From a virus (Duplodnaviria; Caudoviricetes), in the IMG/VR virus record IMGVR_UViG_3300047553_000334, positions 1,875-65,874 of that record: a stretch of 64,000 bases of DNA, one strand, 5' to 3'. The notes under the pieces were generated by a model. That model saw only the letters and a program-made list of their open reading frames with translations, made no database searches and was not told the origin of the DNA. This document shows, piece after piece, positions 31,373 through 57,381 of the stretch; the first letter of the stretch is position 1, and the number at the start of each line of letters is the position of its first letter. The position numbers and the translations under genes were made by a program.

Positions 31373-32266
31373 TTAAACCCACGCAGCTGCACTGCCATGG
31401 GCGCGAATGACAACATGACTGTCGCCATCACATTGGAGAGATGCAGGACAACCTACACAGGTTGTATGCATTGGTAGCATATTGCGATACGCTCGCATCT
31501 CATTGATGAACGGGTCGCTTGGGCACTGCTTCATACCCTTGCTGTAGGCTACGTGCCGACGATTGACGTAGTCATGCTCAGGTAGAACTGTAAACGTACC
31601 CCAGCCAGCTTGCTCTGCCTCGTACTGGTCAGTGTAGTTGTCGCATGACGCTTGTAGCACACCCTTGAATGGTTGAGCTAACTGCATGCGCCATTGGTGT
31701 GTGTAGCCACGATGGCCAAGGCTGTAGCGTAGCAGGTCACCCCAGACAGGAAATGGCACGGCTACAGGATCACCATATGAACCAATACGTGTCTCCTTAC
31801 CAGCAACAATTTGTATGGTTGCAGCGACAGTGCTAGACACAACAGGTATGTTGCCGCGTTGGAATGACTCCCAGATTGCAGTGACACCCTTGCCAATATT
31901 GACGTAGCACGTACGCACAAGCTTGACTTTGCCATTGACAATGTGCCTCTTCCAACCCTTGCGATGTACACATTTGCCACAGATGCAGTCGTCAATCATA
32001 AAGTCAATGGCGTGTTGAGGATGGATATCACGCATGATGATATAAGTCTGCAACATGTCACCAGTCTTGATGTTGTAATCCTCTGGGTTGTACTGGCAGT
32101 TGGACATCACAGCAATGATAGGGTGGCGTCGATCAAGTTGTGATGGCCCATTGTAGAAGCAGTACGAGTTGTACTTCGGCTTCATATGCTTGCCGTTAGT
32201 TACGTTGGTGAAAAGGGCTGGATTTGCATCTAGCCCAAACTTGTTGAGATATTCTTTAGCTGTCAT
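31373..32266 (-). CDS. Conserved Cys-rich phage enzyme-like protein (possible Fe-S / radical-SAM-like fold)
   Basis: GPSQLD, KTGDMLQTYI, ICGKCVHR, CYVN, RIGSYGDP, GYTHQW, ASCD, QCP, CVGC..C motifs. Confidence 0.6.
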   Translation of the reverse strand: MTAKEYLNKFGLDANPALFTNVTNGKHMKPKYNSYCFYNGPSQLDRRHPIIAVMSNCQYNPEDYNIKTGDMLQTYIIMRDIHPQHAIDFMIDDCICGKCVHRKGWKRHIVNGKVKLVRTCYVNIGKGVTAIWESFQRGNIPVVSSTVAATIQIVAGKETRIGSYGDPVAVPFPVWGDLLRYSLGHRGYTHQWRMQLAQPFKGVLQASCDNYTDQYEAEQAGWGTFTVLPEHDYVNRRHVAYSKGMKQCPSDPFINEMRAYRNMLPMHTTCVGCPASLQCDGDSHVVIRAHGSAAAWV

Positions 32267-33708: not shown

Positions 33709-33947
33709 TTTGTCTCCTCAATTATTGTGATGGTCACAACGTCATCTTCCCACTCGATGAACGAGTCATCACATTCAAGGCAATACTTAGCTCGCTTGTC
33801 GTTGTTGACCCAAGCTTTGAGTATGCCAAGAAAGTACTTCTTGTCTTTCTTGGACGCACCGCTCATGCGGTAATAGTGACGTGCCCAGCGCAACATGCCG
33901 GGAGCGTTGAACATTGGGACTGATACTAAAGCGATTCTTGTTTTCAT
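33705..33947 (-). CDS. Hypothetical protein
   Basis: Likely start ATG 33947 (ATGA overlap with the upstream stop). Confidence 0.55.
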   Translation of the reverse strand: MKTRIALVSVPMFNAPGMLRWARHYYRMSGASKKDKKYFLGILKAWVNNDKRAKYCLECDDSFIEWEDDVVTITIIEETK

Positions 33948-34183
33948 ATTTTGTTTCCATTCATGTGATGATCGATGAGGGCTTGTTGATAGCCATACAG
34001 CCATGTCATGGCCTCACTAAACCCACAGGCTCTTGCTCCACAGTCGGCTGTAAAGTAATCACCGTACATACCTTTTGGTGCAAACTTGTAGCGTGTAACG
34101 CCATCGCCTGGGCTGTATGTAAATACGTCTAGGTTGCAGTGTTTAAGCACTGCATTCATGTGTTCTTTATCTCGCTTTGTCAT
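33944..34183 (-). CDS. Hypothetical protein (TYSPGDGVTRY motif)
   Basis: 79 aa, GAGG RBS, recurrent phage early-gene motif. Confidence 0.65.
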   Translation of the reverse strand: MTKRDKEHMNAVLKHCNLDVFTYSPGDGVTRYKFAPKGMYGDYFTADCGARACGFSEAMTWLYGYQQALIDHHMNGNKI

Positions 34184-34447
34184 TTAAATACCTCTTAGTG
34201 TTCTTGCTTCTGCGCTTGTAACAACTCGTACAATTGAGTCGATTACATCTTGTGGGCAGTCTCCTTCTTCAAGGACTGCCATGACAGCTTCCATAGCTGC
34301 CTCAAGGATTTCTTCCTGTGTATAGTCTTCCTCTGGGTCAAAGTAATCCCAAAGGCTCACGTCTGGTAAGTCATTGGTTGTTAATCCAATGTGGTCAATC
34401 ATAAGCTGATCGACGACAGCGCGGAATGTTTGAAGAGTGTATTTCAT
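34184..34447 (-). CDS. Hypothetical acidic protein
   Basis: 87 aa, DLPDVSLWDYFD; AAGGA RBS preceded by a pseudoknot motif. Confidence 0.7.
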   Translation of the reverse strand: MKYTLQTFRAVVDQLMIDHIGLTTNDLPDVSLWDYFDPEEDYTQEEILEAAMEAVMAVLEEGDCPQDVIDSIVRVVTSAEARTLRGI

Positions 34448-34467
34448 TTGTTTGTCCTTTGTTTGGT

Positions 34468-34498
34468 TGTGCGTTGTTGGTGAGACGCACCCCTCACA
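34468..34498 (-). ncRNA. Leader H-type pseudoknot motif, copy 1
   Basis: GUGAG-GGGUGCGU-CUCAC-CAACA-ACGCAC: 5-bp stem whose loop GUGCGU pairs with downstream ACGCAC. Confidence 0.65.
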
Positions 34499-34504
34499 TT
34501 GTCA

Positions 34505-34990
34505 CTAGGCGAGTTCGACTAGGTCGCTGTTGTCACGTGCAGTCGATGCCACACACTTATCGAACTGTGGCATTGAAGTAGCGACGTACTTCCAGAAGTC
34601 GAACGGAACCGCAGGAAGCTCAATGTCTTTGATGATTACATTGAACGCCTTGATAGCCTCCTGAATTTGGTCATCAAGTGTCTCAGATGTAGTCTTGACA
34701 GTGAACGTACGCAGCTTTCTACTGGATGGATCAGTGCGTTGGTTCTCGTCTTCGTACATATTCAGTGATACATCGATCTTGGCTACGACTCGGTCAAGCA
34801 ATGCCAAGTCTCGTGTTGCCACATCAATACGGAGATGAAAATTGAGGGCAACGCGATGACCATTGATGTTGAACTCTTTGTCATGGTGTGTTGTCTCATA
34901 ATAATCGTATGTATTGCCGATGCCTCCGCTAATACGGCGAATGTCATCAGAGAGACGAGAGACGAAATAGTCAAACGTAGGTGTAGACAT
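34505..34990 (-). CDS. Hypothetical protein
   Basis: 161 aa, preceded by pseudoknot motif copy 2. Confidence 0.7.
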   Translation of the reverse strand: MSTPTFDYFVSRLSDDIRRISGGIGNTYDYYETTHHDKEFNINGHRVALNFHLRIDVATRDLALLDRVVAKIDVSLNMYEDENQRTDPSSRKLRTFTVKTTSETLDDQIQEAIKAFNVIIKDIELPAVPFDFWKYVATSMPQFDKCVASTARDNSDLVELA

Positions 34991-35009
34991 AGTTGTTATG
35001 TTCTCTTTC

Positions 35010-35040
35010 TATGCGTTGTTAGTGAGACGCATCCCTCACA
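35010..35040 (-). ncRNA. Leader H-type pseudoknot motif, copy 2
   Basis: GUGAG-GGAUGCGU-CUCAC-UAACA-ACGCAU: compensatory G-C to A-U change in stem 2 relative to copy 1. Confidence 0.65.
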
Positions 35041-35047
35041 TAAAACA

Positions 35048-35302
35048 TTAGATAGCGATGTAGCAGTTTTTGATTTCTTTGATGCCAGCTTCTTTGATGA
35101 TGTGATTACGTACATCAGCAACTTGCGATTCGTCTAGATATTGAATAGCCTCGCCAAGCCAAAGCAAGACATAGTTGTTCTCATTACGTAGGTCATCAAA
35201 AACTTTTGTCAATCTGTCGTATTGACCTTGCGTTATTAGATTGTTATTAAATAGTGACTCAATAAGTATCTCGCCACTAATAACTTCAAACGGCATTTTC
35301 AT
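35048..35302 (-). CDS. Hypothetical protein
   Basis: 84 aa, ATGA overlap. Confidence 0.6.
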   Translation of the reverse strand: MKMPFEVISGEILIESLFNNNLITQGQYDRLTKVFDDLRNENNYVLLWLGEAIQYLDESQVADVRNHIIKEAGIKEIKNCYIAI

Positions 35303-35571
35303 TTGATTAGATTCTCTTTCTTTTTTGTTTGTGTTGGTTGTCCAGTTTTGTTATCAAACCAGACAAGCATGTACGGCTCATCAATGTATGTGCCAATTTT
35401 TCTACGTGTTATTCGTACGTGCATTACAGGTGTGGTCTCTTGCTGGATGATAACTCTATATCGAGACCAAGTCTTAGCCCATGCTGCAGTTCTCCAAACA
35501 ATAGGAGGGCCGAATTCTCGGCCCTCAAAGTCATAACATTGACAAAGGTAACTATATGGATAGTTAGCCAT
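35299..35571 (-). CDS. Hypothetical protein
   Basis: 90 aa, GAGGT RBS. Confidence 0.6.
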   Translation of the reverse strand: MANYPYSYLCQCYDFEGREFGPPIVWRTAAWAKTWSRYRVIIQQETTPVMHVRITRRKIGTYIDEPYMLVWFDNKTGQPTQTKKKENLIK

Positions 35572-35887
35572 TACTTGTATCTACCTCATCCCAACCTTTA
35601 GGGTTGACTGGTATTTCCTGTAGTGTTGCCATCCACTTATCAAACGCAAGCAGTTCTTCGTGTGTTGGCTCATCGTTAATCCAGTCATCAAAGCCCATGA
35701 CATTGCGCGTGTCATGTGGGACATGCGCATCTGCAAAGTCAAGGATCTCTGCAAGAAACATGCGAGCTTGCCCGTCAAGAAACTGTTGAAACTGCGGAAC
35801 TAACTTGATGAGTCGCTCAATGCCTCCACCCGGATGAATGTGAAGGTATGCAAATCTCAAGATGAGGATTTTGTAGTGTTTAGTCAT
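35564..35887 (-). CDS. Hypothetical protein
   Basis: 107 aa, GGAG RBS, ATGA overlap. Confidence 0.65.
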   Translation of the reverse strand: MTKHYKILILRFAYLHIHPGGGIERLIKLVPQFQQFLDGQARMFLAEILDFADAHVPHDTRNVMGFDDWINDEPTHEELLAFDKWMATLQEIPVNPKGWDEVDTSNG

Positions 35888-36255
35888 TTGTTATCGTTCT
35901 CCATTTCTTTCTGCATAAATGTGATGAATTGTGTTGCCCACAACCGGAGTGCTTCTGCGTTAGACTCAAACGTCCATTGCTCATGGATATTTGCTGCAGC
36001 AAGTCTAATTTGTCCATATGCGTTGTCAACAAGGTCAACATCAACACGGACTGTCACGTCTTGATATGGCCTTTCTCGATACAACTCAATGGTCATGGTC
36101 TGAGTCAGTTTTGTTGTACGACTAATTCTGGTGAAACTGTGTATGCCTCCACGCACTGTCATGTCAGTGAATGGATCAGTTGATTTACCTCTTAGCAATT
36201 CATACAGAGATGAAGCTACTTCTTGTGGGGACTCGTAACGATTATTCAGATTCAT
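35884..36255 (-). CDS. Hypothetical protein
   Basis: Likely start ATG 36255 after AAAGGA. Confidence 0.6.
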   Translation of the reverse strand: MNLNNRYESPQEVASSLYELLRGKSTDPFTDMTVRGGIHSFTRISRTTKLTQTMTIELYRERPYQDVTVRVDVDLVDNAYGQIRLAAANIHEQWTFESNAEALRLWATQFITFMQKEMENDNK

Positions 36256-36358
36256 TGTCAATCCTTTGTTGATACTCAGTAACTGAGTGAAAGAACCATC
36301 CAATCAAAAATAGAATGGATAGCAATGCGATGAGAGTGCAAATGATTATTGCAATCAT
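36242..36358 (-). CDS. Small single-TM membrane peptide (38 aa; not in ORF track)
   Basis: MIAIIICTLIALLSILFLIGWFFHSVTEYQQRIDNESE*; GAGGA RBS; overlaps the next gene. Confidence 0.65.
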   Translation of the reverse strand: MIAIIICTLIALLSILFLIGWFFHSVTEYQQRIDNESE

Positions 36359-36406
36359 GATTCGTTCCTCAATAATAACGTTCTAATTATTATTGTTCAA
36401 TGTAAT

Positions 36407-36474
36407 GAGGGGTACAATTTTTATACCCCTCTAGGGTACAAAATTTGAGGGGGCTAAATTTTATACCCCCTCAA
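36407..36474. repeat. Cluster of related palindromes GAGGGG(TA)-N9-12-(TA)CCCCTC
   Basis: Two full palindromes (36407-36431, 36445-36474) with a half copy AGGGTACAAAATTT between them, next to an AT-rich tract. Confidence 0.65.
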
Positions 36475-36477
36475 TTT

Positions 36478-36816
36478 TTATGCCATGTTTCGCACTCGAT
36501 TGATGATGTTGAGTGCCCGGCAGAGGACAACTTCCTCGCTTGGTGTGACCTTCACCTTGTCGAGTACACGCCTCCACAGGCGGTTGCGCCAGCGTGTGCT
36601 ATTGGTGTACGTGCTGTAGGTAGCAGGTCGTACGTCGATGAGATCCGCCAATACCTTGACTGGTAGTGCGTCCTCAAGAAGCATCATGCACATTTCCTCT
36701 TTGGGAGAAACTTGCACGTCCTCAATGAGTCCTGCTTCACGCAGGGCGTTGAACTGCTCGTACTTGATACCAGCAGCTCGTAAAGCGTCAATTTGTTCTT
36801 GTGTGAATGGTTTCAT
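36478..36816 (-). CDS. Hypothetical protein
   Basis: 112 aa, AGGAG RBS. Confidence 0.7.
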   Translation of the reverse strand: MKPFTQEQIDALRAAGIKYEQFNALREAGLIEDVQVSPKEEMCMMLLEDALPVKVLADLIDVRPATYSTYTNSTRWRNRLWRRVLDKVKVTPSEEVVLCRALNIINRVRNMA

Positions 36817-37040
36817 AGTTCACTCCTAAGTTTGTTTACCAACATACCAACGGGATTCTGCATTTTCTCAGCAGCGTGTGCCCCAAATCTGAGGATATCC
36901 TCATCATTGAGGTTGTTAAACCCAGACATAGCTTCGTTTACGTAGTCCTCTTGGGAGTATTGTGCCCAGAGGAGAATGTCTGTGTCATACATCCACAGTA
37001 CGTACGTCTTTATCGCGTCTAACGCTTGCTCTCTTGTCAT
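36813..37040 (-). CDS. Hypothetical protein
   Basis: 75 aa, ATGA overlaps. Confidence 0.65.
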   Translation of the reverse strand: MTREQALDAIKTYVLWMYDTDILLWAQYSQEDYVNEAMSGFNNLNDEDILRFGAHAAEKMQNPVGMLVNKLRSEL

Positions 37041-37246
37041 TTGATACCTAACCTTTTGTTTTTGCGTGTCTCACGATCGTCGTGAAACGTCTCGACGAGA
37101 AGTGTGTCAAGCTCCTCAACAAGTTGTCTAAGATGATTCTCCGGCGCTGGAAAAGTCACCCCATGTAATCGATATGTTTTATGCATAGCGCTTGAGACCT
37201 CAGCGATCTTGGCTTGCAGCTCATTGATTCTTTGTTGATTTTTCAT
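37037..37246 (-). CDS. Hypothetical coiled-coil protein (69 aa)
   Basis: Start re-assigned to ATG 37246, because the longer ORF-track version runs through a hammerhead ribozyme and the upstream gene. Confidence 0.6.
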   Translation of the reverse strand: MKNQQRINELQAKIAEVSSAMHKTYRLHGVTFPAPENHLRQLVEELDTLLVETFHDDRETRKNKRLGIK

Positions 37247-37260
37247 GGTTTGTATCCATA

Positions 37261-37326
37261 TGACCTGACTCATCAGTGCAAGGCGGTCAACTCTTACAGA
37301 CTTCTCCGCATGGGAGAAGTTTCGTC
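37261..37326 (-). ncRNA. Hammerhead ribozyme, type II (HH-D)
   Basis: GAC-GAAA-CUUCUCC[CAUGC]GGAGAAG-UC^UGUAAG[AGUUGACCGC]CUUGCA-CUGAUGA-GUC-A-GGUCA. Full core; loop I UGACC pairs with 3' GGUCA. Predicted cut 37299/37298. Confidence 0.88.
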
Positions 37327-37779
37327 TTACAAGAGTCCGGTTGCTTCCATACTCTTGAACACCTGCAAGTGGTAGATGCTCCGGTATGTGCCGTACCACA
37401 TGTGGAAGCCACAGTTCTTGATCGTCAACAACACATCCTTCTTGAATGGGAAGTTGTGCTCAGGTTGTACGACCTTAGCCTCCTTGCCAGTATGGGCAAA
37501 GAACATGGCGTTGATTTGCTCTGCCTCATCACGGTCAATGAAGAGGCAAAGCATCTGCTCTTTGCTGTCCTTCTCCATAGTGACAACATACTCACCGTCT
37601 GTTGTCTGGAGAACGTACGGCCACTGGGGGAAGTCAAGCATCTCATTGACATCGATGTTGTTCTCATCGGCATACTCGCGTACGCAAAGATGGAAGTTAG
37701 TCATCTCTTTCTTGACCTCCTTGGCAAGCCAAGCGGTTTCGATACGTTTGATCAGATTAGGTTTCTTGTTTGTTTTCAT
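37327..37779 (-). CDS. Hypothetical protein
   Basis: 150 aa, AGGAG RBS, directly downstream of the Csx16-like gene. Confidence 0.75.
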   Translation of the reverse strand: MKTNKKPNLIKRIETAWLAKEVKKEMTNFHLCVREYADENNIDVNEMLDFPQWPYVLQTTDGEYVVTMEKDSKEQMLCLFIDRDEAEQINAMFFAHTGKEAKVVQPEHNFPFKKDVLLTIKNCGFHMWYGTYRSIYHLQVFKSMEATGLL

Positions 37780-37788
37780 TTGTTTCTC

Positions 37789-38118
37789 CTAGTAGTAATT
37801 GACACCGACTTCGTCGCGGATGTCGTTCCATGCCTCAATAGTCATGACTTTGTAACCAACGAGGCTTGCACCGCACTGATCCATTTGCTCTGGAGTCAGC
37901 TCCTTGCCTCGCAGTTCCAATGGCAGGTTAGGTAAATCCACCGACCACACCTCACGGGCATGGCAGGCGAGGTGCATCGGGATGACACCGATGACCTTGC
38001 GTCCTCGCATCAGGTCAGGTGTTGCGTGGGCAACGACTGTTACATCCGGGCTAACGTGCCCGTGCAGTACTAGCCATTGCACCAAGCCAATATGTCGAGA
38101 GATAACTATTGTTTCCAT
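37789..38118 (-). CDS. csx16: Csx16-like (Cas_VVA1548 family) protein, candidate cyclic-oligoadenylate ring nuclease
   Basis: TIVISRHIGLVQWL...VVAHATP...VIGVIPMHLA...LPLELRGKELTPEQMDQCGASL matches the Csx16 pattern as I recall it (SRH.G..EW; H; VIG.LP.HLA; RG.ELS...GA.L). ATG 38118 after AAGGA. Confidence 0.8.
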   Translation of the reverse strand: METIVISRHIGLVQWLVLHGHVSPDVTVVAHATPDLMRGRKVIGVIPMHLACHAREVWSVDLPNLPLELRGKELTPEQMDQCGASLVGYKVMTIEAWNDIRDEVGVNYY

Positions 38119-38146
38119 AGTTTCTTTGTTTCCTTGTGTTTGAAGT

Positions 38147-38178
38147 ATGCGTTGTTCACCGAGTCGCACCCCTCGGTG
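38147..38178 (-). ncRNA. Leader H-type pseudoknot motif, copy 3 (upstream of csx16-like gene)
   Basis: CACCGAG-GGGUGCGA-CUCGGUG-AACA-ACGCAU: stem 1 covaries relative to copies 1 and 2. Confidence 0.6.
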
Positions 38179-38251
38179 AGTGAGATATGGCCACGTTGGC
38201 ACCACTCACTCGGTCAATGCGGTTACGCCTCTTCGTAACCTGTGATATCTG

Positions 38252-38308
38252 ACGTGTTTCGGCGTGACTGCCTCATCAGCCTATAGGAATCACCCTATAG
38301 GTACACGT
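38252..38308 (-). ncRNA. Hammerhead ribozyme, type III (HH-C)
   Basis: ACGUGUA^CCUAUAGG[GUGAUU]CCUAUAGG-CUGAUGA-GGC[AGUCAC]GCC-GAAA-CACGU. Canonical core; loops I and II are complementary. Predicted cut 38302/38301. Confidence 0.92.
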
Positions 38309-38340
38309 TGGGGTGGCACGTGAGCACCACCCCGTACTAC

Positions 38341-38451
38341 TTAGTGACCGTATCGATGCATCGGAAGCGTTGACAGCATCCAATACATAAGCACTAAGCC
38401 TCCGACGATAATGACGGCAGTGATGCCGTCCGTGATGAACTTCTTCTTCAT
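38341..38451 (-). CDS. Small single-TM membrane peptide (36 aa; not in ORF track)
   Basis: MKKKFITDGITAVIIVGGLVLMYWMLSTLPMHRYGH*; ATGA overlap with 38448..38687. Confidence 0.6.
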   Translation of the reverse strand: MKKKFITDGITAVIIVGGLVLMYWMLSTLPMHRYGH

Positions 38452-38687
38452 CTTCCACCCACCTTTCTTGCAAGGGCTACCACTTCAGGGTCGGTGTCGC
38501 CACCAACCAAGCGAGCAAGCCCCATCATGTGTCCCTCCAGCTCGCGGTAGCTGAAGATGTGCACGTTGACCATCATCTCCCCGCAAGCGGACTTAATGGA
38601 GATGGATGTCTTTGAAACGCTTGTCGGCGTAGAGATGGTGAAGGACCACTTTCGGTTTGCGGTCATGAAGGCGCCATTAAATTCCAT
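38448..38687 (-). CDS. Hypothetical protein
   Basis: 79 aa, AAAGGA RBS immediately after HH-B. Confidence 0.7.
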   Translation of the reverse strand: MEFNGAFMTANRKWSFTISTPTSVSKTSISIKSACGEMMVNVHIFSYRELEGHMMGLARLVGGDTDPEVVALARKVGGR

Positions 38688-38715
38688 GGCTCGTTGTTTC
38701 CTTTGTTTTTTGGTT

Positions 38716-38773
38716 ACGTGTTTCGCCTAGACTGGCCTCGTCAGCTCATTGCCATCACACAATGAGGACACGT
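38716..38773 (-). ncRNA. Hammerhead ribozyme, type III (HH-B)
   Basis: ACGUGUC^CUCAUUG[UGUGAUGG]CAAUGAG-CUGACGA-G-GCC[AGUCUA]GGC-GAAA-CACGU. Predicted cut 38767/38766. Confidence 0.88.
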
Positions 38774-38789
38774 TTAAAAGGGTGGGGGC

Positions 38790-39077
38790 TTACGCCCCCT
38801 TGGTGAAGGTGCAGTTGTCGTACTCGAAACTGCACGGTGTACCGTTCCACTGCCGGGAAATCCAGTACGCCCCTTCGATGTCGATTGGCTTGATGGTGTG
38901 CGAGCGACTTGCGCAAGCAAGCATCTGAAGCAGATATCCGTCTGTCCAGTTAGACATCTGATTCACGAACGTCTTACCGTCTTCGACTACGTATGGACCA
39001 CGCGTAGTGGTCAGCGTCCACGTACATACTACGTACGGTTCACTTGGGGTTGATTGTGTGTGTGTTGCGAATGACAT
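38790..39077 (-). CDS. Hypothetical protein
   Basis: 95 aa, AAAGGA RBS with an A/C-rich leader. Confidence 0.65.
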   Translation of the reverse strand: MSFATHTQSTPSEPYVVCTWTLTTTRGPYVVEDGKTFVNQMSNWTDGYLLQMLACASRSHTIKPIDIEGAYWISRQWNGTPCSFEYDNCTFTKGA

Positions 39078-39105
39078 GGCTCATTATCCTTTATGTGTTT
39101 TTTTG

Positions 39106-39141
39106 AAAAATAAAGCACCCGGTATCGTGTACCGGGTGCTT
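39106..39141 (-). terminator. Intrinsic terminator
   Basis: 12-bp stem AAGCACCCGGTA/TACCGGGTGCTT ending in UUUAUUUUU on the minus strand, just after the stop of 39149..39490. Confidence 0.75.
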
Positions 39142-39148
39142 CCGGGGA

Positions 39149-39490
39149 CTATTCGTCCCCTTCGTCCCCAGCCATGGCTGTCGCCATCGCCGTCTTGGTC
39201 ATCGCCTTCAACGATGCCATGAATGGGTCGATTGGCTTGGCAGCCTTGACTGCCACTTCGAGATTCGCGAGTTGAGTACCGATTCTGTCCAGAACCAAGC
39301 GGTAACTATCGGCATCGGTTTGCCGCTTCCGGAAACCGACCGCATACACCGTCTGAATGGACTGCCAGCCCTTATTGATTGTATCTTCGGTCATTGGCAG
39401 ACCGGTTGCGATGTGACCGGCGATATCGCTTTCAAACTTGCGAATCGCATTCATCGCGGGTTCGAATATCACGGGTTGTTTTGTTGACAT
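39149..39490 (-). CDS. Hypothetical protein (first gene of the minus-strand unit)
   Basis: 113 aa, AAAGGA RBS, GC-rich codons. Confidence 0.75.
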   Translation of the reverse strand: MSTKQPVIFEPAMNAIRKFESDIAGHIATGLPMTEDTINKGWQSIQTVYAVGFRKRQTDADSYRLVLDRIGTQLANLEVAVKAAKPIDPFMASLKAMTKTAMATAMAGDEGDE

Positions 39491-39524
39491 AATAAAGTTT
39501 CCTTTATCGGTATGTTAGATTGTA

Positions 39525-39588
39525 TTGATGTTTCGACATAGGTTTGTCATTATCAAGCGTACCGTTACCAGCGGTAACACGACATCAA
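39525..39588 (-). ncRNA. Hammerhead ribozyme, type III, U3-A8 core variant (HH-A)
   Basis: UUGAUGUC^GUGUUACCG[CUGGUAA]CGGUACGC-UUGAUAA-U-GACA[AACCUA]UGUC-GAAA-CAUCAA. Core C3-G8 replaced by U3-A8. Predicted cut 39581/39580. Confidence 0.75.
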
Positions 39589-39889
39589 GGTTTTGAAGGT
39601 TTCCAGCGGTGGAAACCAGCGGTACCGGACGACCCCGGAGGGCGTCCACACCATGTATGTAGGTCGGTTTTCAGGGCACAGTCACGTCGGGTGGTGGGGT
39701 GGCGGTAGTACCCGGCATGGCAAGGGGGTGGGTCGGTTGCCTCGGCACAGTAGGGACTCCAAACCATATATTCTCAGCTGATCTTTATCTATTTCTCCCA
39801 TCGCAGAAACTCATCTCCCCACGGAGAAAATGATTAGGATCCATATAGATTTGCTACAATCAGCTGGTTTAGATATACTTACGGTATGA

Positions 39890-39961
39890 TCCTACTTAGC
39901 TCAGCGGTAGAGCGTCCGGCTGTTAACCGGATGGTCGCTGGTTCGATCCCAGCAGTAGGAG
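39890..39961 (+). tRNA. tRNA-Asn (GTT)
   Basis: Cloverleaf: acceptor TCCTACT/AGTAGGA, D arm GCTCAGCGGTAGAGC, anticodon arm TCCGG-CTGTTAA-CCGGA, T loop GGTTCGATCC; CCA not encoded. Confidence 0.95.
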
Positions 39962-40039
39962 TCCCCCATGTATGTAAACGCACTGGGGATAGCGTTGCAC
40001 CCTGTGGTCCTTTCTCTTTCTCCTGCAGGGTGTAGCGTT

Positions 40040-40249
40040 ATGAAGCTTACTGTAGACCAAGTGATTGAAATACGCAGGTTGCACGCTTCTGGTATGAAGA
40101 CGGCATATCTTGCTATGAAGTATGGTGTGTCACAACAGCATATATATCGATTGCTAGATAACCAGCGCTGGGGTAAGCGTTTACGTCTTGAGTACGACCG
40201 TGCTACGCATAAAAAGTTACTGGATGCTATAGCTGGGCGCAAGCAGTAA
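40040..40249 (+). CDS. Small HTH DNA-binding protein
   Basis: KLTVDQVIEIRR...LAMKYGVSQQHIYRLLDNQRW; start re-assigned to ATG 40040. Confidence 0.7.
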   Translation: MKLTVDQVIEIRRLHASGMKTAYLAMKYGVSQQHIYRLLDNQRWGKRLRLEYDRATHKKLLDAIAGRKQ

Positions 40250-40269
40250 AATGTGGTAGGAGGGTTACC

Positions 40270-40836
40270 ATGCCACAGACGCCCAAAAAACAGAAAGATA
40301 CATATCCTGTATCATCACCACCCGCAAAGGTGAATCAGCGCACAGGAGATGCCGCGCCGGGACAGAGTAAATACCTTACACGTCTAGCAAACAACAGGGC
40401 ATCAATTACTGTAAATCGTCTCACTGACATTGGTACATTATATGATTCACCAAACAGGCCGTATAAAGGTTTTTATAAAAGAGACTATCTCAACGTACCG
40501 CGCACAGACGCATATTATGAAGAGATAAATCCACTACGAAAATTTAAATTGGATTCAGAAACTCTTCAAAAAGATTTAGTGCGTAATAACAAATTGACTG
40601 GCTCTACAAAATCGCCTAAATCTGAGGCGAGCAAGCCTTCACCTATGGAAACAGCTGGCAAGGCAGCCGTTGGTAGCAGTATGTTAGCAAGTCCTGCAGC
40701 TAAAGGTTTCGGTACCGTAGGTGCATTACTTGCATCACAAAAAGCAGCTGGTCAATCAAGAAAAGATGAGCAATCTGCAGTTGACAACTGGAATTCAAAG
40801 ACTAATTATGGGCGTTTATTGGGGTTAAAAAAATGA
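40270..40836 (+). CDS. Hypothetical basic protein
   Basis: 188 aa, AGGAGG RBS. Confidence 0.7.
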   Translation: MPQTPKKQKDTYPVSSPPAKVNQRTGDAAPGQSKYLTRLANNRASITVNRLTDIGTLYDSPNRPYKGFYKRDYLNVPRTDAYYEEINPLRKFKLDSETLQKDLVRNNKLTGSTKSPKSEASKPSPMETAGKAAVGSSMLASPAAKGFGTVGALLASQKAAGQSRKDEQSAVDNWNSKTNYGRLLGLKK

Positions 40837-41958: not shown

Positions 41959-42039
41959 GCCTCGGTGGTGAAACGGTAGACACGACAGACTTAAAATCTG
42001 TTGTCGCAAGACGTACGGGTTCGAGTCCCGTCTGAGGCA
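41959..42039 (+). tRNA. tRNA-Leu (TAA)
   Basis: Acceptor GCCTCGG/CTGAGGC, anticodon arm ACAGA-CTTAAAA-TCTGT, variable arm GTC-GCAA-GAC, T loop GGTTCGAGTCC. Confidence 0.95.
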
Positions 42040-45571: not shown

Positions 45572-48500
45572 ATGGCATCGTTACTGTCTAGTTTAATCAT
45601 GGGGCAACCCGGTCAAGCAACGGATAAAGATAAAGTTAATCAAGGTGCGCAACCACCAGTGCCTCCAACTCCTCCAGCTGGTGGTGCGCCAGGATTACCG
45701 TCTATTCCACCTGTTGCACAGCAGCAACCAACTGGACAGCAACCGCCATCAAATCAGCCATCCGGAGGACCAGTATTTCCTGCTCCTCCGGGTTTTAATC
45801 CAATTCAATTTGACCCTATTGCAAGTATGTCAAAGGTTTTTGGAAACCTTCCACAAGCCACAGGAGGTGCACCGGGATCTGTACTTGGACAAACAAAGGC
45901 TGAAACAGTAACAAAGATTGATCCTAATACATGGGATATGGCAGCCATTCAGCCAAAGGCTGCGCGACTAGATTGGTATTTACGTTCGCAGAAATCTGGA
46001 TCACTTACTAGTGGTGCTGATTTATTAAAAGGTATGCAGTCGTTTCTGCAAAGTGAGGCATCTGGTAAATCACAGACAGCAGGTACAACTCGTGCAGATA
46101 TAACTGGTGATGATCCATTTTTAAAGACAGTTAGTTATGCTACGTCGTTGTACAACAATGGCGGAACCGTTGAGCGTAAGATGGCTGATGCTTATGCTAA
46201 TGGATTGATGTACATGACATCTGCATTAGCACGTAATGATCAGCAAGGTGTTGATGCAGCTAAGTTTTATTTAAGTGACTTAAGCGATTACACAGTAGAA
46301 GATTTCCGAAGTCCTAAAACACAAACGTATTTTGCCAAGCAAGCTGCGTCAGTAGTAAAACCGTACGTATTAAATAAATCATCCGACGAACTTACTAAGA
46401 TGTCGGAAGAAGTTAAACCGGAAGCTGTACGGAAAAAATTACTAGGTAACGTTTTATACGACTACGTACAAAGTCGTTTCACGGATTTACGAACCGAAGC
46501 ACAATCGGGAAGTCCAACTGCAAATGCTGCTCGTAAAACATTAAATACATTTACTAAGATGTATGGTGACTTGGCACGTCCAGCAATCGAAGGGCAGCGT
46601 GACAAACAAGTTGAAATGTTTATGGAGTCACCGCAAGGTCGTGCTCTTATTGACGATGCCTACGATCAATTCGATGGCCAAGGCTTATTTAATACACAAA
46701 AAGCAAAAGACCTTGTTACACGCATGGGTCAGAAAATTAAGTCAACTCAAGGTACTGGTTCTTTTGATCCAGCTAATGACGTTACTCCACAAGAATTAAA
46801 AGATTTCTTTGGTCAAACAAAAATGAAGCGCTATATATCTAGCGCAATTGACATTGATCCAAATATTAGTGATGAGGCATTACGTCGGTTTGAATTAGAC
46901 CCGTCAAATGTAGATGACGATGAAATGTATGGTGCACTGACACCATCCGGTGTTGCTGCACTTTATGGCAAGAAGGACGACTCTCTTGTTGGAGACGTAG
47001 GTCGTGCTGGGCGTCCAGACCCATATATGTATGATCTATCGTCTAACTTCTCGGCTAATCAAACACAAGCACCATCTACATTGTCTGGTGGTAATACAGG
47101 GCGTATTAGGTCACGTGCTGAGCTTGCAGGTGCAATGGCATCTGGATTAGGTTTAAGTGAAGCACAGTTAGAGCAAGCAGCCCGTAAGTTATTCTCTAAT
47201 ACAGACGATATTTCTGAGTTTGTAAATGCGGGTATGAATGATTACGACATTGAGTCGGATATTCTGCCAAAGGTACAGACCGACATTAAGTCGTCCCGCA
47301 TTTCGCAAACAGGTGGCATAAAAACAGCTGGTACATCCACGGGTACATATAACTTACTTACTGATACGTTTAAAGCCGTAGATGAAGTCATGCCGGGTGG
47401 ACCACAGCAATCATCATGGTTAAACAAAAAACGCGCCCTTAACGATATTGCTGTGCAGGCTCGTAATCTTGAAGGCACTGCTGTATCTGCTGCTGGTTCT
47501 AGGTTTGCTAAGACTGCTACCGGTGAACCAGATTACTTTAATCCAATATTGCCTGACCGTGGTGATCAGGTAGGACGCATACAAATCCTGCAAGATATTT
47601 TTAAACATGCAAGTGAGAATTCCAAGTACCGAACTGATTTACAAAATCTTATTCGCAGTGCAATAGATGGCAGGCCATACACAGGCGACATTAAGATGAC
47701 TCCATCGCAGTTGTCTTCCGTTGTTAGTATTTATGCAAAGCACCTAGAAGAAGCTGCGTCAGCAAATCCAACAGCAGCTGGAAGCCCAAACCAGTTATTT
47801 AATTCCATGTTTGGCATCCTGCCATCCGACTATAACAAACGCGATTTGCGCATGAAGATTTTGAAGTCATTGCAATCAGCAAGTCCTTCTAAGTTTAAAA
47901 CAATGTCGAGCACAATGGAAGTTGAACCCAGTGGAAACACTAGGTTAATACCAGTTGCTAATGCTGGACAGGTTATGGAAAATGCGTCTAGCATTCCGGG
48001 AGACACTGGAGCAAAAGGTGGACGTAGTAGTAAAACTGAGAATGCTGCACTAAACAGAGTTGAACGTAGTCAGCAAATTTTAGGCGATATTTTTAAAACT
48101 GCTAAAGATTCTATTCTTTCGTATACCAATGATATTGGTTTAGGTGAATCAATTGGTGCAACAACTGCTCCATCAAAATTTAAGGATGGCGTAGTCGCAG
48201 CGTTTGATAAAGCTATTGGTGATTCTTTAGCTAAGTACAAAATTGACCCAAATGATAAACCAAAGTTTGACCGCATGGTCGAAAAAATTAAAGAGCAGTT
48301 AGTTGATCAGGCATCTACTGAATGGATGAAGGGTACTGTAACTGGTCAAGAAGTCGACAATATATTTAAACAATTTGGACAAGTCCAAAGATCCATTGGC
48401 GCAACGGGTATGTCTGATGCTGCAGCACCAGCAGTAGGACGAAATGTGCCTACTAGAGATGATGCTAATGCAGCTAAAGTAACTGAGGGTCGTAAGATTT

Positions 48501-51500
48501 ATGCTGATGCAGTTGCAGCTCTAGGTGGTAATTTACCAGCCAAACAGGAGAGTGTAGATGCACTAGAGGCTAAAGTTCAAGGTGTTATTGATCAGGCAAC
48601 GAAGCGTGGCAAACCTGATTACGCAGACTTTGTTCGTAACTGGCAAACACACTCTAACACAATGTTAGTAGAAGCCAAGCGTGATACTGACAGATATGCA
48701 GAGAAGATTAAAAACGCACAACAAGACATTGCAACATTAACTAAAGAGTCTAATGCTGAAGGCACCACACCTGCCCGAAAAGCAGAAATACAAAAGCAAA
48801 TTACACGCCTTACGACTGGTATTAACGCAGATGCAAAAAAGGGAAGTCAAGCATTACGCAAATTACAAATGCGTGTGGCGACGTATGGAAAAATCCCAAC
48901 TCCAGAAGACTATGCTGCTTTACTTGAAAAGGGTGACGAGCAAACACAGCAGAAGAATCAAGTAGATCTTGAATTCAGGCGCGTACGTGCAAAAGTAAGG
49001 GCAGGTGGATTTAAGTCACTAACTGCAAATGAAAAAGCTTTCTGGCTTGATGAGGGCGTAAAACGTTACGACATCGGTGAGGAAAACTCCATCGGCATCG
49101 GACGTAGTACACGTCTAGGATTTAATAGTTTCCTTGCTAGTATTGCTGGTACTAACTGGACTATTGTTAATCCTGAGTACGAATTGTTTGATGACAATGA
49201 ACGTGCACCTAAATATTTAACTGAAATTCTTGACCCAAAAACCAATCAGATTATTGGCCACAAATTAAATGACAATGTCAAATTTGCATTCCAGTGGAAA
49301 AAAGATGAAAAAACAGGGATGTTTACGGATGTAAGCGTCGTTGCTACAGAGTTTGTAAAGCAAGGTAACAATGCAAATAAACCTTTGCGTAAACAGATAA
49401 TAGAAACTGGCGTCGAACGAGCGATTGTAAGAGCACGTAACTTTTACGTTGCGTTAGAAGATGACCTAAAAAATATTGATGCACGTGTAAAAGGTGAAAC
49501 ATTTGGTTTACTTAAAACTGACACGCGTGTAAATAGAAATGCATCCAAATTATCTGGCGTCATTCGTGACATTATGGAATTGGAAGGGCGCGGTTCACTA
49601 AATAAAGCAAATCAAACAAATATTGGAGAGTTAAAGAAAGAAGCCATAAAAGGTTTAACAGCAGCTGGTTATGACCAACCACAAACGTTTCTTAATGAGC
49701 TTCTTGCTAAAGATAAAGCTGCAAGACAGGTTTTAAATTTCTCAGACACATTACGTACTCGAATGGCAGATCGTATTAATACGTTTGCTGGTAAGACTGT
49801 GCGTACGCCACAAGAAATACAAGATGACATATCTAGTTATTTTGGCACACAGGAAGCGTCATCTGAAGAATTTAAAAAAATAGAGGATCAGACACGGCTA
49901 GAGAAAATTGACTTACTTGATAAGTTAGGTATTGATGTACGTAGATCCAAAGACAGAGCAGGCAATGTAACAGATGTATCTGTCCCAACGAATGCTGTAG
50001 GACTTGCGTTAGATAAGATTGACACAAAAGGCAAGGTGCGTTTTACAACAACAAAAGAAAACGTTGCCAGTTTACGACAATCAGTAATTGCGAAATTACG
50101 ACCACTACAAGAACGACTACAAAAAGAAGTTGATGGTGGTGCATTAGTTGGTCGCGATAGATTACAGAAAATTGCAGAGGCAAAGAAGCTTTCAAAGTTA
50201 GCAGGAGATATTAATACTGCTACATCAGAAGGTGAGTTATCTGGAGTTGTACTGGCATTTACATCTAATGATCCAGCTGTTAAGGCAGCGCAAGATGTAG
50301 CAAGAGGGTGGTCAACTAGATCGGATAAGCTACCATCAGAAATGTATGCTGCTTATAAACGGTTAGCAGATAAGCAATTAGATGGATCTATCTCTGAGGC
50401 AGATGGCAATAAGCTAAAAGCAATTAGTATTCAATTAAACAAACATCTGCGTGATGTAGCTCCTGAACTCGGTAATAACCCATTGGATAAGTTATATAAC
50501 TTAGACAACATGGAAACACAGATTGCACAAGGATATTTAGATCAAACAACAAAGTCAGACAAGAATCCTTTTAAAGTAATTTTTGGTGAGGCTGCATATA
50601 AGATTGCGCGTGTGGATTTGCCACGCGGTAGATCATCTGAAGGTGACGCAGAATTCATCAAGAAGTGGACGAGTAAATGGAAGCGCAAGGACAAAGATCG
50701 TCTAGAAAGAGAAATGGATATTGCTAAGACATTAGGTCTTAGTGTTAACAAATTAGAACTTGGAGACGTTTGGCGACAGCTTGAAAAGAGATTTAATAGT
50801 ATGTCTCCAAAACAATGGCTAGAGTACACATATGGATTACCTGAAGATGCACGTAATCTTGTGTTGCGAGAATATCCATTGCAGTCGCAATCATTGATGC
50901 CAAATCAATTAGGTGAGGGCGACGGATTATCACGTCGTGAAATTAACAGACGTCTTCTTACTGTAACGCCGGATGGACATGTTGTTCCTGCAGCTAAAGA
51001 AACAAAAACAGCTCCGCAGGTGGTTAAAGAAAACCGGATGCCATTTAGTGAGAAGTATGATGACGCACTTATGTGGAAGATACGTAACAATGCAGTTGAA
51101 TACACTGACATTCTGCATGATTCACTTAAATCCTATAAGTATGAAGTAAAAGGCCCAGACGGTAAAACTGTAAAGGTAAATGGTGATGCATCATTTACCG
51201 TAGAAAAAACTATAACCCAAAATGGTAAACAAGTTACAGTTAAGGAACTCAAACCCGGATATACCGTACTTGGTGCTACTGAGTCAGTTACAAATACACT
51301 TACTGGGGAACGTACAACTCGTGAAGTTCCAACACAATCTGACTATATGGTCAATGGTAAAAAGATAACTGTTCCGTTGTTTAACCGACAAGCACTTTTG
51401 CTGTCTACTAGACTTCCTGCGTCGATAGATGTAGACATAGTTGATAAGAAGTTAGTTAAAGTTGAGCCAGTATTTAAACCAAGGGCACTGCCATCAACAA

Positions 51501-57376: not shown

Positions 57377-57381
57377 TTAAA

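What the first reader, a model, noticed from the sequence alone, without database searches (positions are those of the whole stretch)
34468..38178. Three covarying H-type pseudoknots in 5' leaders of early genes (RNA motif I cannot assign)
Seen at 34468-34498, 35010-35040 and 38147-38178 (minus strand): stem1-GG(G/A)UGCG(U/A)-stem1'-AACA-ACGCA(C/U), then an unstructured A/C-rich run, RBS and ATG about 20-30 nt downstream. Stem 1 covaries (GUGAG/CUCAC vs CACCGAG/CUCGGUG) and stem 2 covaries (GUGCGU/ACGCAC vs AUGCGU/ACGCAU). The architecture recalls the T-even gene 32 leader pseudoknot, but I match it to no named family. Inference: translational enhancer/operator, exonuclease block or small riboswitch.
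Basis: partly seen in the sequence, partly recalled or inferred. Interest (0 to 1): 0.75.

Follow-up and report, generated by a model that had tools for sequence, protein, structure and literature searches.

The report
Widespread phage intercistronic RNA pseudoknot
The three sites are real copies of a tiny, highly conserved RNA pseudoknot that sits at gene boundaries in hundreds of unrelated phages, matches no catalogued RNA family that I could search, and has no known function.

Summary
Observation confirmed and much enlarged. The three minus-strand sites (34469-34497, 35011-35039, 38147-38178) are the only copies in this 65.9-kb phage genome. They fold as stem1-GG-RUGCG-N-stem1'-(N)nAA-CGCAY.

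A covariance model finds 78 copies in the window plus 37 related contigs, all on the gene strand. Pattern scans show that a 25-nt core version is very common in phage contigs. It occurs in E. coli phage phi92 and relatives, Microbacterium phage Pumpernickel, crAss-like phages and a Microviridae genome, but hardly at all in bacterial genomes.

Both helices are supported by compensated-versus-uncompensated counts:
- Stem 1: GAG/CUC >=120 and CAG/CUG >=119 stretches, against 6 and 1 for the mixed forms.
- Stem 2: U-A changes to C-G in 102 of 109 cases.

No Rfam 15 family matches, and my literature searches found nothing.

The wider family argues against a gene-specific translational operator or a riboswitch. 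The knot starts at least 6 nt after the upstream stop codon in 217 of 218 cases, can lie 3-6 nt before a tRNA, and can sit between two tRNAs.

Best guess (about 0.3): an autonomous "punctuation" knot acting on RNA processing and stability, mainly as a 3'-end exonuclease barrier. A new self-cleaving ribozyme is not excluded. Three hammerhead ribozymes occupy equivalent junctions in the same operon.

The parts
38147..38178 (-). Pseudoknot copy C: stem 1 of 7 bp (38178-38172 with 38163-38157), loop 1 GG (38171-38170), stem 2 of 5 bp (38169-38165 with 38151-38147), junction A (38164), loop 3 AACAA (38156-38152). It lies upstream of the Csx16-like gene 37789-38118.
   Evidence: Sequence; covariance model R1 39.0 bits, E 5.7e-10; exact pattern match.
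35011..35039 (-). Pseudoknot copy A: stem 1 of 5 bp (35039-35035 with 35026-35022), GG (35034-35033), stem 2 AUGCG/CGCAU (35032-35028 with 35015-35011), junction U (35027), loop 3 UAACAA (35021-35016). It starts 8 nt after the TAA of ORF 35048-35302 and ends 20 nt before the ATG of the 161-aa ORF 34505-34990.
   Evidence: Sequence; R1 61.5 bits; pattern match.
34469..34497 (-). Pseudoknot copy B: stem 1 of 5 bp (34497-34493 with 34484-34480), GG (34492-34491), stem 2 GUGCG/CGCAC (34490-34486 with 34473-34469), junction U (34485), loop 3 CAACAA (34479-34474). It starts 7 nt after the TAG of ORF 34505-34990 and ends 21 nt before the ATG of the 87-aa ORF 34184-34447.
   Evidence: Sequence; R1 51.4 bits; pattern match.
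38716..38773 (-). Associated element, not the motif: a hammerhead ribozyme with stems I and II closed, in the spacer before ORF 38448-38687.
   Evidence: Rfam Hammerhead_II 25 bits, below the gathering score. My descriptor finds the core boxes plus stems of 5, 8 and at least 3 bp. Conserved in L011, L023 and L024.
38252..38308 (-). Associated element: a second hammerhead with stems I and II closed, about 75 nt upstream of pseudoknot copy C.
   Evidence: My own descriptor only; Rfam did not report it at E<=10. Conserved in L011, L024 and, in variant form, L019.
37267..37326 (-). Associated element: a type II hammerhead that starts at the stop codon of ORF 37327-37779.
   Evidence: Rfam Hammerhead_II 37.5 bits against a gathering score of 37, E 1.4e-5. 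Also found by my descriptor, and conserved in L011, L019 and L023.

Best explanation
What it is (shown, about 0.95): three copies of a compact H-type RNA pseudoknot. Its layout is N(1-4)-[G/C]AG - GG - RUGCG - N - CU[C/G]-N'(1-4) - N(2-4)AA - CGCAY, 25-36 nt in all. It belongs to a very large phage-specific family that is not in Rfam 15. It is transcribed inside polycistronic RNAs.

How it most likely works (inferred, about 0.3): it is an autonomous intercistronic 'punctuation' element acting on RNA processing and stability, not on the translation of one particular gene.
- It sits just outside the footprint of a ribosome terminating on the upstream cistron, so it can stay folded.
- The polycistronic RNA is then cut downstream. 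RNase P would cut where a tRNA follows 3-6 nt later. Another endonuclease would cut in the G-poor, A/C-rich leader elsewhere.
- The knot is left at the new 3' end of the upstream RNA with only a few unpaired nucleotides, and stalls 3'->5' exonucleases.
- The invariant loop nucleotides (GG, AA) and helix cores would be explained by base triples that make such a small fold unusually resistant.
- In this operon, hammerhead ribozymes punctuate other gene junctions in the same way.

As a by-product, the repeated 35-45-nt units flank a spot where early accessory genes are exchanged among relatives.
For: Structure:
- 78 of 78 strong model hits lie on the gene strand in the window plus 37 related loci. 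The next-best score is 21 bits, and the rest are at most 13.7.
- 99.8% of cells are paired over 62 distinct rows, with 3 covarying pairs.
- Stem 1 core pair: GAG..CTC in >=120 stretches and CAG..CTG in >=119, against CAG..CTC in 6, five of them identical, and GAG..CTG in 1.
- The pair next to the stem 1 core is UA 57, CG 50, AU 9, GC 7 and non-pairs 9, out of 132 distinct strings.
- Stem 2 end pair: GC 103, AU 15, GU 14, AC 0 of 132. With a pyrimidine on the 5' side, 6 of 7 hits are compensated.
- Stem 2 second pair: with C on the 5' side the partner is G in 102 of 109 distinct cases.

RNA level and link to the upstream cistron:
- The upstream stop codon ends at least 6 nt before the GAG/CAG in 217 of 218 contexts that have an upstream ORF. 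In one class 98 of 121 fall at 6-10 nt. In the other 94 of 97 fall at 6-21 nt and none below 6.
- All three stop codons are used: TAA 95, TAG 19, TGA 7.
- The distance to the next start codon is loose, 7-117 nt.

Independence from the downstream gene:
- The knot-to-tRNA gap is 3, 4, 4, 5 and 6 nt in L287, L128, cr50_1, L392 and L133.
- It follows VP1 in a Microviridae genome that has only five annotated features, so it probably has no phage-encoded partner.
- It follows terminase- and portal-sized ORFs in L066.

Phage specificity: match lengths in viral contigs peak at 23, 24 and 26 nt (133 of 138). In bacterial genomes they are flat, and only about 4 of 120 hits look genuine.

Punctuation context: three hammerheads lie at other junctions of the same operon.
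Against: - No RNA data at all. No RNA end, half-life or cleavage has been observed, so the mechanism is pure inference.
- A simple exonuclease block should not need this much sequence conservation. With the GAG/CUC stem, a change at the third nucleotide of stem 2 was found 0 times, with any partner.
- Some contexts have no upstream cistron to protect. In phi92 the order is tRNA, 51 nt, knot, CDS. In L392 it is tRNA, 42 nt, knot, 5 nt, tRNA. In the second case a 3' block would even hinder trimming of the upstream tRNA.
- phi92, Pumpernickel and two large phi92-like contigs (97 and 153 kb) carry a single copy each. That is odd for a general stabiliser.
- The tight spacing after stop codons could also be genome compaction plus a lower limit set by the ribosome footprint.
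Confidence: 0.3

Rival explanations
1. A new class of small self-cleaving ribozyme, or a dedicated recognition site for a universal endonuclease such as RNase P. It would cut the polycistronic RNA at or beside the knot and separate neighbouring cistrons or tRNAs.
For: - It works without any shared phage protein and across very different hosts: E. coli, Microbacterium, the crAss-like group and Microviridae. This fits an autonomous RNA.
- The loop nucleotides are invariant and one junction nucleotide is fully free (T 54, A 42, G 27, C 9 of 132).
- Three hammerheads hold equivalent intercistronic positions in the same operon.
- Other small ribozymes in phages lie next to tRNAs (theta ribozymes, PMC10879173, passages seen).
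Against: - At 25 nt it would be smaller than any natural self-cleaving ribozyme I know of (recalled).
- No cleavage data exist.
- It matches no ribozyme model in Rfam.
- I found no orthologous junction where a hammerhead and the knot replace each other.
Confidence: 0.2
2. A translation-level element. It would be an enhancer, standby site or insulator placed before the ribosome-binding site, or an operator for a repressor.
For: - In this clade all 78 copies are followed by a start codon, mostly 13-26 nt downstream.
- The leader after the knot is unstructured and A/C-rich.
- The knot lies where a 30S subunit bound at the start codon would touch it.
Against: - The same knot lies 3-6 nt before tRNAs and between tRNAs.
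- The knot-to-start distance is 7-117 nt in the CAG class.
- No common downstream gene family: 12 clusters in this clade and many more elsewhere.
- A Microviridae genome carries it, and no RNA-binding regulator is annotated there.
Confidence: 0.12
3. A trans-acting small RNA. The knot would be released by tRNA-processing enzymes or other cuts, and would act as an aptamer or decoy for a conserved host enzyme or defence protein.
For: - It is embedded in or beside tRNA arrays in phi92-like phages, L392, L133, L128, Pumpernickel and cr50_1. That would give ready excision.
- The core is invariant across host phyla.
- In this window it accompanies accessory early genes, one of them Csx16-like.
- Phage pseudoknot RNAs that neutralise a host toxin are known (PMC3475682, listing and abstract seen).
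Against: - Most copies lie between two protein genes, with no obvious excision signal.
- No target is known.
- There is only one copy in a 148-kb genome.
Confidence: 0.08
4. An RNA element that acts on the transcribing RNA polymerase, giving processive antitermination in the manner of put or nut sites. It would keep transcription going across untranslated stretches.
For: - RNA polymerase is a universal partner.
- The element lies in early operons and before untranslated tRNA arrays.
- Like lambdoid nutR, it follows a stop codon (recalled).
Against: - This clade has three to four (up to six, counting divergent variants in L006) copies per operon, some only about 540 nt apart.
- No terminators follow copies A and B.
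- I judge the resemblance of part of the long variant to the rRNA-operon boxA (recalled) to be chance. The matching nucleotides vary in the short variants and are paired in the knot.
Confidence: 0.07
5. A DNA-level signal: a single-strand priming or recombination site, or a promoter for a phage RNA polymerase.
For: - It is strand-specific, and hairpin promoters are known for N4 virion RNA polymerase (recalled).
- This phage has unexplained ORFs of 4254 and 2126 aa.
- In Microviridae the packaged strand is the sense strand.
- Gene content varies next to the repeats.
Against: - G.U is tolerated on the sense strand at the stem 2 end (14 of 132) and A.C never occurs.
- A DNA site would not keep at least 6 nt from stop codons in 217 of 218 contexts.
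- Microviridae and Erf/SSB-type phages encode no RNA polymerase.
- No -35/-10-like conservation lies upstream.
Confidence: 0.06
6. A small riboswitch or aptamer for a universal metabolite.
For: Its size and topology recall the smallest pseudoknot riboswitches. The unpaired nucleotides cluster at the helix junction and are invariant.
Against: - There is no expression platform: no terminator, and the ribosome-binding site is not part of the knot.
- It occurs before tRNAs.
- It occurs only in phages.
- It matches no riboswitch model.
Confidence: 0.04

Closest known systems
Intercistronic mRNA processing and stabilising structures of phages (T7 RNase III sites; the 3' stabilising hairpins between phiX174 genes). 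Recalled, not tested here.
   Same: They sit between cistrons of polycistronic phage RNAs, close behind stop codons, in both early and late regions. They are thought to leave a protective structure at the 3' end of the upstream RNA. One Microviridae genome carries the knot after its major capsid gene.
   Different: Those are long irregular hairpins specific to one phage group and to one host enzyme. This is a 25-36-nt pseudoknot with an almost fixed core, shared by phages of unrelated hosts.
Exoribonuclease-resistant RNAs (xrRNA) of flaviviruses and plant viruses. Recalled.
   Same: A compact pseudoknotted fold whose conserved nucleotides serve tertiary contacts. The proposed role is a mechanical block to an exonuclease.
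   Different: xrRNAs are about 45-70 nt three-way-junction rings that stop the 5'->3' enzyme Xrn1. E. coli, the host of phi92, has no comparable 5'->3' exonuclease (recalled). The block proposed here faces 3'->5' enzymes.
T-even gene 32 leader pseudoknot
   Same: An H-type pseudoknot in a phage 5' leader, followed by an unstructured stretch and the ribosome-binding site.
   Different: The gene 32 knot is one copy per genome, tied to one gene and to its own product as repressor (recalled; mentioned in PMC10690425, passage seen). Here there are many unrelated downstream genes and tRNAs.
preQ1-I riboswitch, the smallest pseudoknot aptamer
   Same: Same topology and size class, with an A-rich third loop.
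   Different: No match to the Rfam model. The 3' strand of stem 2 does not contain the Shine-Dalgarno sequence. Found in phages only.
Small self-cleaving ribozymes of phages (hammerhead; HDV-like theta ribozymes, PMC10879173)
   Same: Short, autonomous and common in phage intergenic spacers and next to tRNAs. Three hammerheads share the operon with the knot.
   Different: The knot lacks the hammerhead core and the nested double pseudoknot with a third hairpin that defines HDV-like ribozymes. Theta ribozymes abut the 3' end of tRNAs, whereas this knot abuts the 5' end. Cleavage is untested.
Compact triple-stranded frameshifting pseudoknots of luteoviruses. Recalled.
   Same: Very similar dimensions: 4-5-bp stem 1, 2-nt loop 1, one junction nucleotide and an A-rich loop 3. 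Placed about 6-8 nt after a decoding site.
   Different: All three frames close within a few codons after the stop at copies A and B (read), and some copies have no ORF on either side.

Membership tests
Any Rfam 15 family | Score against the family covariance model | tested here: not met
   No match at any motif site: window 33900-40300 at E<=10; five diverse loci at E<=1; an 81-nt and a 71-nt slice at E<=10. The only line returned was a 6.5-bit chance hit.
H-type pseudoknot (architecture) | Two helices, with the loop of the first pairing to sequence 3' of it, both supported by compensatory change | tested here: met
   Stem 1. Stem 2. Merged alignment: 98.2% of cells paired against 14-58% for slid controls. 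That alignment was harvested with patterns that fix most positions.
T4 gene 32-type autoregulatory leader | One copy upstream of the ssDNA-binding protein gene that represses it (recalled) | tested here: not met
   There are 12 different downstream gene clusters in this clade and tRNAs downstream elsewhere. No gp32-like gene follows any of the three window copies.
preQ1-I or other pseudoknot riboswitch | An aptamer joined to an expression platform (terminator or sequestered ribosome-binding site) upstream of ligand-related genes (recalled) | tested here: not met
   No terminator-like site follows copies A or B. The ribosome-binding site lies 1-12 nt beyond the knot. Downstream genes are unrelated, and no Rfam hit was found.
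Riboswitch | Binding of a ligand | not testable with these tools
   Needs in-line probing or calorimetry.
Hammerhead ribozyme | The conserved catalytic core boxes around a three-way junction | tested here: not met
   The knot has neither the boxes nor a three-way junction. The true hammerheads nearby are separate elements.
HDV-like / theta ribozyme | A nested double pseudoknot with an extra hairpin (P3) between the 5' strands and the return strand of P1, and cleavage at the ribozyme's 5' end next to a tRNA 3' end (PMC10879173 passages, plus recall) | tested here: not met
   Only one nucleotide separates the 5' strand of stem 2 from the 3' strand of stem 1, so there is no room for P3. The knot lies at tRNA 5' ends.
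Self-cleaving ribozyme (any class) | Site-specific self-scission | not testable with these tools
   Needs in vitro transcription and a cleavage assay. No RNA run that holds the locus was listed.
N4-type hairpin promoter for a virion RNA polymerase | Template-strand hairpin with a 3-nt loop, and a phage-encoded giant RNA polymerase (recalled) | tested here: not met
   The loop is 8 nt. Wobble tolerance at the stem 2 end is on the sense strand (GU 14, AC 0 of 132). The motif occurs in a Microviridae genome and in Erf/SSB-type phages. The giant ORFs match no family or solved structure. A scan of them for a few short polymerase motifs that I recalled found no convincing set.
Type III toxin-antitoxin antitoxin RNA (ToxI-like) | Tandem direct repeats of a roughly 36-nt pseudoknot unit next to an endoribonuclease toxin gene (recalled; PMC3475682 abstract seen) | tested here: not met
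   The copies are 540-3100 nt apart, one per intergenic spacer, and never tandem.

The most novel reading that the evidence does not exclude
The knot is a new and by far the smallest natural self-cleaving ribozyme class, with a core of about 25 nt. Alternatively it is a universal RNA aptamer that phages of Proteobacteria, Actinobacteria and Bacteroidota, and even Microviridae, use against one conserved host enzyme. In the ribozyme case it would cut polycistronic phage RNAs at gene and tRNA boundaries, as the hammerheads in the same operon do.
Probability: 0.17. Interest if true: 0.95.

Novelty: categorically new. Interest (0 to 1): 0.82.

Why it matters
A 25-36-nt RNA fold with an almost invariant core is shared by tailed phages of E. 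coli and Microbacterium, by crAss-like gut phages, by many freshwater and marine phages and by a single-stranded DNA Microviridae. It is absent from Rfam 15, and I found no description of it.

An element this common and this host-independent must touch something basic in how phage RNAs are made, cut or protected. Either it works alone (an exonuclease-proof knot or a ribozyme) or it engages a universal host machine.

It is directly testable, because close relatives of phi92 that carry it grow on E. coli K-12.

It would also be a useful compact part for RNA engineering, as an insulator or stabiliser, and a marker for annotating transcript units in uncultured phage genomes.

Tried and rejected
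Rfam: six searches found nothing at the motif.

Literature:
- Sequence strings of the motif returned only unrelated papers (27 papers).
- Keyword searches gave no description of it.
- PMC10690425 lists 8,495 candidate structured RNAs from IMG/VR. I saw only passages of its main text. Its supplementary tables, which I could not open, may already contain this motif. My claim that it is not in print therefore rests on these searches only.

RNA evidence: no RNA holder was listed for the locus, and read laying was not used.

Phage-polymerase promoter idea: rejected, see rivals. The giant ORFs match no PHROG, Pfam or PDB sequence, and a scan for a few recalled short polymerase motifs was not convincing.

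Host sigma-70 promoter just upstream: no -35/-10-like conservation in 80 aligned flanks, and the promoter scan did not exceed its shuffles.

Stop-codon read-through or frameshift signal: rejected, because all frames close within a few codons after the stop at copies A and B.

CsrA-type GGA site: rejected, because the A of GGA covaries with its stem 2 partner and is usually G.

boxA/Nus site: rejected as chance, see rivals.

Hammerhead-for-knot swaps at orthologous junctions: none found.

A partner protein shared by motif-bearing contigs: all-against-all clustering of 5,259 ORFs found none. The commonest neighbours outside the clade were Erf, SSB, a DnaD-like loader, an exonuclease and terminase.

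Nested folding alone does not single out the sites. It picks stem 1 or stem 2, with z-scores of -0.5 to -3.3. Pseudoknot energies could not be computed.

Close relatives by protein: the 161-aa gene found none, and megablast of the region against cultured phages found none.

blastn of three other variants found nothing, or only chance hits apart from Pumpernickel.

Full report
THE OBSERVATION

Exact sub-coordinates are listed under 'parts'.

They are the only three matches in the whole 65,874-bp virus record of which the window is bases 1875-65874. All three are on the minus strand, and the reversed control pattern gives none. The shared 9-mer occurs 4 times against 1.08 expected, and 0 of 100 shuffles reach 4.

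Each copy fills a short spacer:
- Copies A and B start 8 and 7 nt after the stop codon of the preceding ORF. They end 20 and 21 nt before the next ATG.
- Copy C lies in a longer spacer and ends 28 nt before its ATG.

THE GENOME

The window is a phage.
- The plus strand carries terminase, portal and major head genes (53299-59345) and two giant ORFs of 2126 and 4254 aa. The giant ORFs match no PHROG, Pfam or PDB sequence.
- The minus strand, from about 39.8 kb down to 23.2 kb, carries many small ORFs followed by a replication initiator and a DnaB-like helicase. 'Early' is therefore a reasonable label for the motif-bearing genes.
- No cultured phage is close.

RELATIVES AND STRUCTURE

A conserved 297-aa protein (31373-32266) retrieved 37 related IMG/VR loci at 73-95% identity.
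- A regular expression found 83 motif instances in the window plus these loci.
- A covariance model built from 62 of them found 78 hits of at least 31 bits, every one on the gene strand. The next-best hit scored 21 bits at a contig end, and the rest scored at most 13.7 bits.
- On the 62 distinct rows, 99.8% of cells form standard pairs, against 14-58% for slid controls.
- The two outer pairs of stem 1 and the outer pair of stem 2 covary. The other seven pairs never vary in this clade.
- The stem 2 end pair is G-C 53, A-U 16, G.U 12 and A/C 2 of 83. Both A/C cases are the same coding-region sequence, which lacks stem 1.

THE FAMILY IS FAR WIDER THAN THIS CLADE

- The 138 matches have lengths sharply peaked at 23 (74), 24 (21) and 26 (38) nt.
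- The 23-24-nt forms are a minimal knot: a 4-bp stem 1 (N-GAG/CUC-N'), GG, a 5-bp stem 2, one free junction nucleotide and a loop 3 of NNAA.
- They occur in contigs of very different base composition.
- The same pattern in 596 Gb of bacterial and archaeal genomes gave a flat length distribution, with 4-16 hits at each length from 23 to 33 nt. Only about four of those hits look genuine, one of them in a Flavobacterium MAG.
- So the motif is essentially phage-specific.

TESTS OF PAIRING THAT DO NOT DEPEND ON AN ALIGNMENT

- The pair flanking the GAG/CUC core is U-A 57, C-G 50, A-U 9, G-C 7, C/A 6 and other 3, of 132 distinct strings.
The mixed forms gave 6, five of them one sequence, and 1.
- The stem 2 end pair: G-C 103, A-U 15, G.U 14 and A.C 0 of 132. 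When the 5' base is a pyrimidine, 6 of 7 hits have the matching purine, C-G five times and U-A once.
- The second pair of stem 2: with C instead of U on the 5' side, the partner is G in 102 of 109 distinct metagenome matches, A in 2, C in 3 and U in 2.
- By contrast, a change at the third stem 2 nucleotide was found 0 times with any partner. So part of stem 2 is constrained in sequence, not only in pairing.
- A merged sample of 131 sequences gives 98.2% paired cells and four covarying pairs. It was harvested with patterns that fix most positions, so its invariant columns say little.
- Rarer variants change the middle A-U of stem 1 to G-C (L135, L100, L006).

The long-range pair with G.U allowed and A.C absent points to folding of the sense strand. 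Stem 1 is less clear on this point: its flanking pair shows 10 G.U in the CAG class and 6 C/A in the GAG class.

NAMED PHAGES THAT CARRY THE KNOT

- phi92 group. blastn with a 33-nt copy hit 122 records of the phi92/phAPEC8 group at 23 of 25 nt, many of them isolated on E. coli K-12. In phi92 the single copy in 148.6 kb lies 51 nt after the last tRNA of the tRNA array and 34 nt before gp114.
- Microbacterium phage Pumpernickel has one copy. It uses the CAG/CUG stem, and lies 16 nt after the stop of an AAA-ATPase gene and 3 nt before tRNA-Arg.
- The crAss-like phage cr50_1 has the copy with the C-G variant of stem 2. It lies 20 nt after a stop codon and 4 nt before tRNA-Ser, which precedes the DNA polymerase gene.
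- A 5.8-kb Microviridae genome has a copy with a 3-bp stem 1, between its VP1 gene and the next ORF.

CONTEXT STATISTICS

- GAG class: of 132 distinct contexts, 121 have an upstream same-strand ORF of at least 60 codons. Its stop ends 6-10 nt before the GAG in 98, 4 nt before in 1, and 11-178 nt before in 22. The stops are TAA 95, TAG 19 and TGA 7.
- CAG class: of 104 contexts, 97 have such an ORF. The distance is 6-21 nt in 94 and never below 6.
- Overall, 217 of 218 contexts keep at least 6 nt. This is about the length of mRNA hidden in a terminating ribosome (established knowledge, recalled). A DNA site would have no reason to respect such a limit.
- The distance to the next start codon is much looser, 7-117 nt.
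- Flanking genes are co-directional and tightly packed.
- Downstream genes are diverse. This clade alone has 12 clusters, ten with no Pfam family among the ones tested. An Erf-like gene follows in 10 outside loci.
- In L066-type contigs the knot follows terminase- and portal-sized ORFs.
- Knot-to-tRNA gaps are 3, 4, 4, 5 and 6 nt in five separate cases. In L392 the knot lies between two tRNAs.

WHAT THIS RULES OUT

- A gene-specific translational operator, or an element that needs the downstream ribosome-binding site, cannot be the general function.
- A riboswitch lacks any expression platform.
- A phage-polymerase promoter or a phage-encoded partner protein is hard to reconcile with the Microviridae copy and with the lack of any shared protein among motif-bearing contigs.
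- Recoding is excluded by closed frames at copies A and B.

WHAT REMAINS

The element must either work alone or work with a universal host machine.

I favour a role in punctuating polycistronic RNA. The knot stays folded just beyond the terminating ribosome. After a downstream cut (RNase P where a tRNA follows, another endonuclease in the G-poor leader elsewhere), it ends the upstream RNA with too short a tail for 3'->5' exonucleases to grip.

The same operon in this window holds three hammerhead ribozymes at other gene junctions: 38773-38716, 38308-38252 and 37326-37267. They are conserved in relatives L011, L019, L023 and L024. This shows that this phage lineage does process its early RNA at cistron boundaries.

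The weak points of this reading:
- No RNA data of any kind.
- More sequence conservation than a plain block should need.
- Contexts with no upstream cistron (phi92, L392).
- Single copies in large genomes.

For these reasons a self-cleaving or enzyme-recruiting function remains a serious rival.

COMPARISON WITH KNOWN SYSTEMS

No Rfam 15 model matches. The knot shares topology and size with the preQ1-I aptamer and with luteoviral frameshift knots. It shares position with phage intercistronic stabilisers. It shares neighbourhood with phage ribozymes. It meets the defining features of none of them (see the membership table).

Seven literature searches returned nothing that describes it. A 2023 catalogue of candidate structured RNAs from IMG/VR (PMC10690425, passages seen) might list it in supplements that I could not read.

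VERDICT

The structure is real and strongly supported. The family is new to the catalogues I could search and is very widespread. The function is open. My ranking is: RNA-end protection or punctuation (about 0.3), ribozyme or processing signal (0.2), translation (0.12), trans-acting decoy (0.08), antitermination (0.07), a DNA-level signal (0.06) and riboswitch (0.04).

Noticed in passing
window 38716-38773, 38252-38308, 37267-37326 (minus strand): Three hammerhead ribozymes lie in intercistronic spacers of the same early operon, each directly before the leader of the next gene. Only one reaches the Rfam gathering score (37.5 against 37). One is below it (25 bits). One was found only by my own descriptor. 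Counterparts occur in L011, L019, L023 and L024.
   Followed up: partly
window 37789-38118 (minus strand): The 109-aa gene behind pseudoknot copy C matches Pfam PF09652 Cas_VVA1548 (Csx16-like CRISPR-associated protein), E 3.4e-17. It is found in this phage only among the 38 clade members examined. It could be an early anti-CRISPR of the ring-nuclease kind, which is my inference.
   Followed up: no
window 9696-22460 and 45572-51952 (plus strand): ORFs of 4254 aa and 2126 aa in the late-gene arm have no hit in PHROGs, Pfam or PDB sequences. Their function is unknown.
   Followed up: partly
window 34184-34447 and orthologous positions in L004-L040: The slot after the third conserved knot holds at least seven unrelated small genes in different relatives, and the number of knots per operon varies from 3 to 6. 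The repeated 35-45-nt units may serve as recombination points for swapping accessory early genes.
   Followed up: partly
window 39112-39142 (minus strand): A strong terminator-like hairpin of 13 pairs followed by a T run lies after ORF 39149-39490, inside the early arm.
   Followed up: no
window 39890-39961 and 41959-42039 (plus strand): tRNA-Asn(GTT) and tRNA-Leu(TAA) lie at the divergent junction between the early and late arms. No knot is next to them.
   Followed up: no
L298, L301, L303, L317, L394-L396 and similar loci: In a subgroup of the CAG-class copies, a run of C just upstream could pair with the GGGG of the knot and form an alternative hairpin. It is not present in the window's copies.
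   Followed up: no
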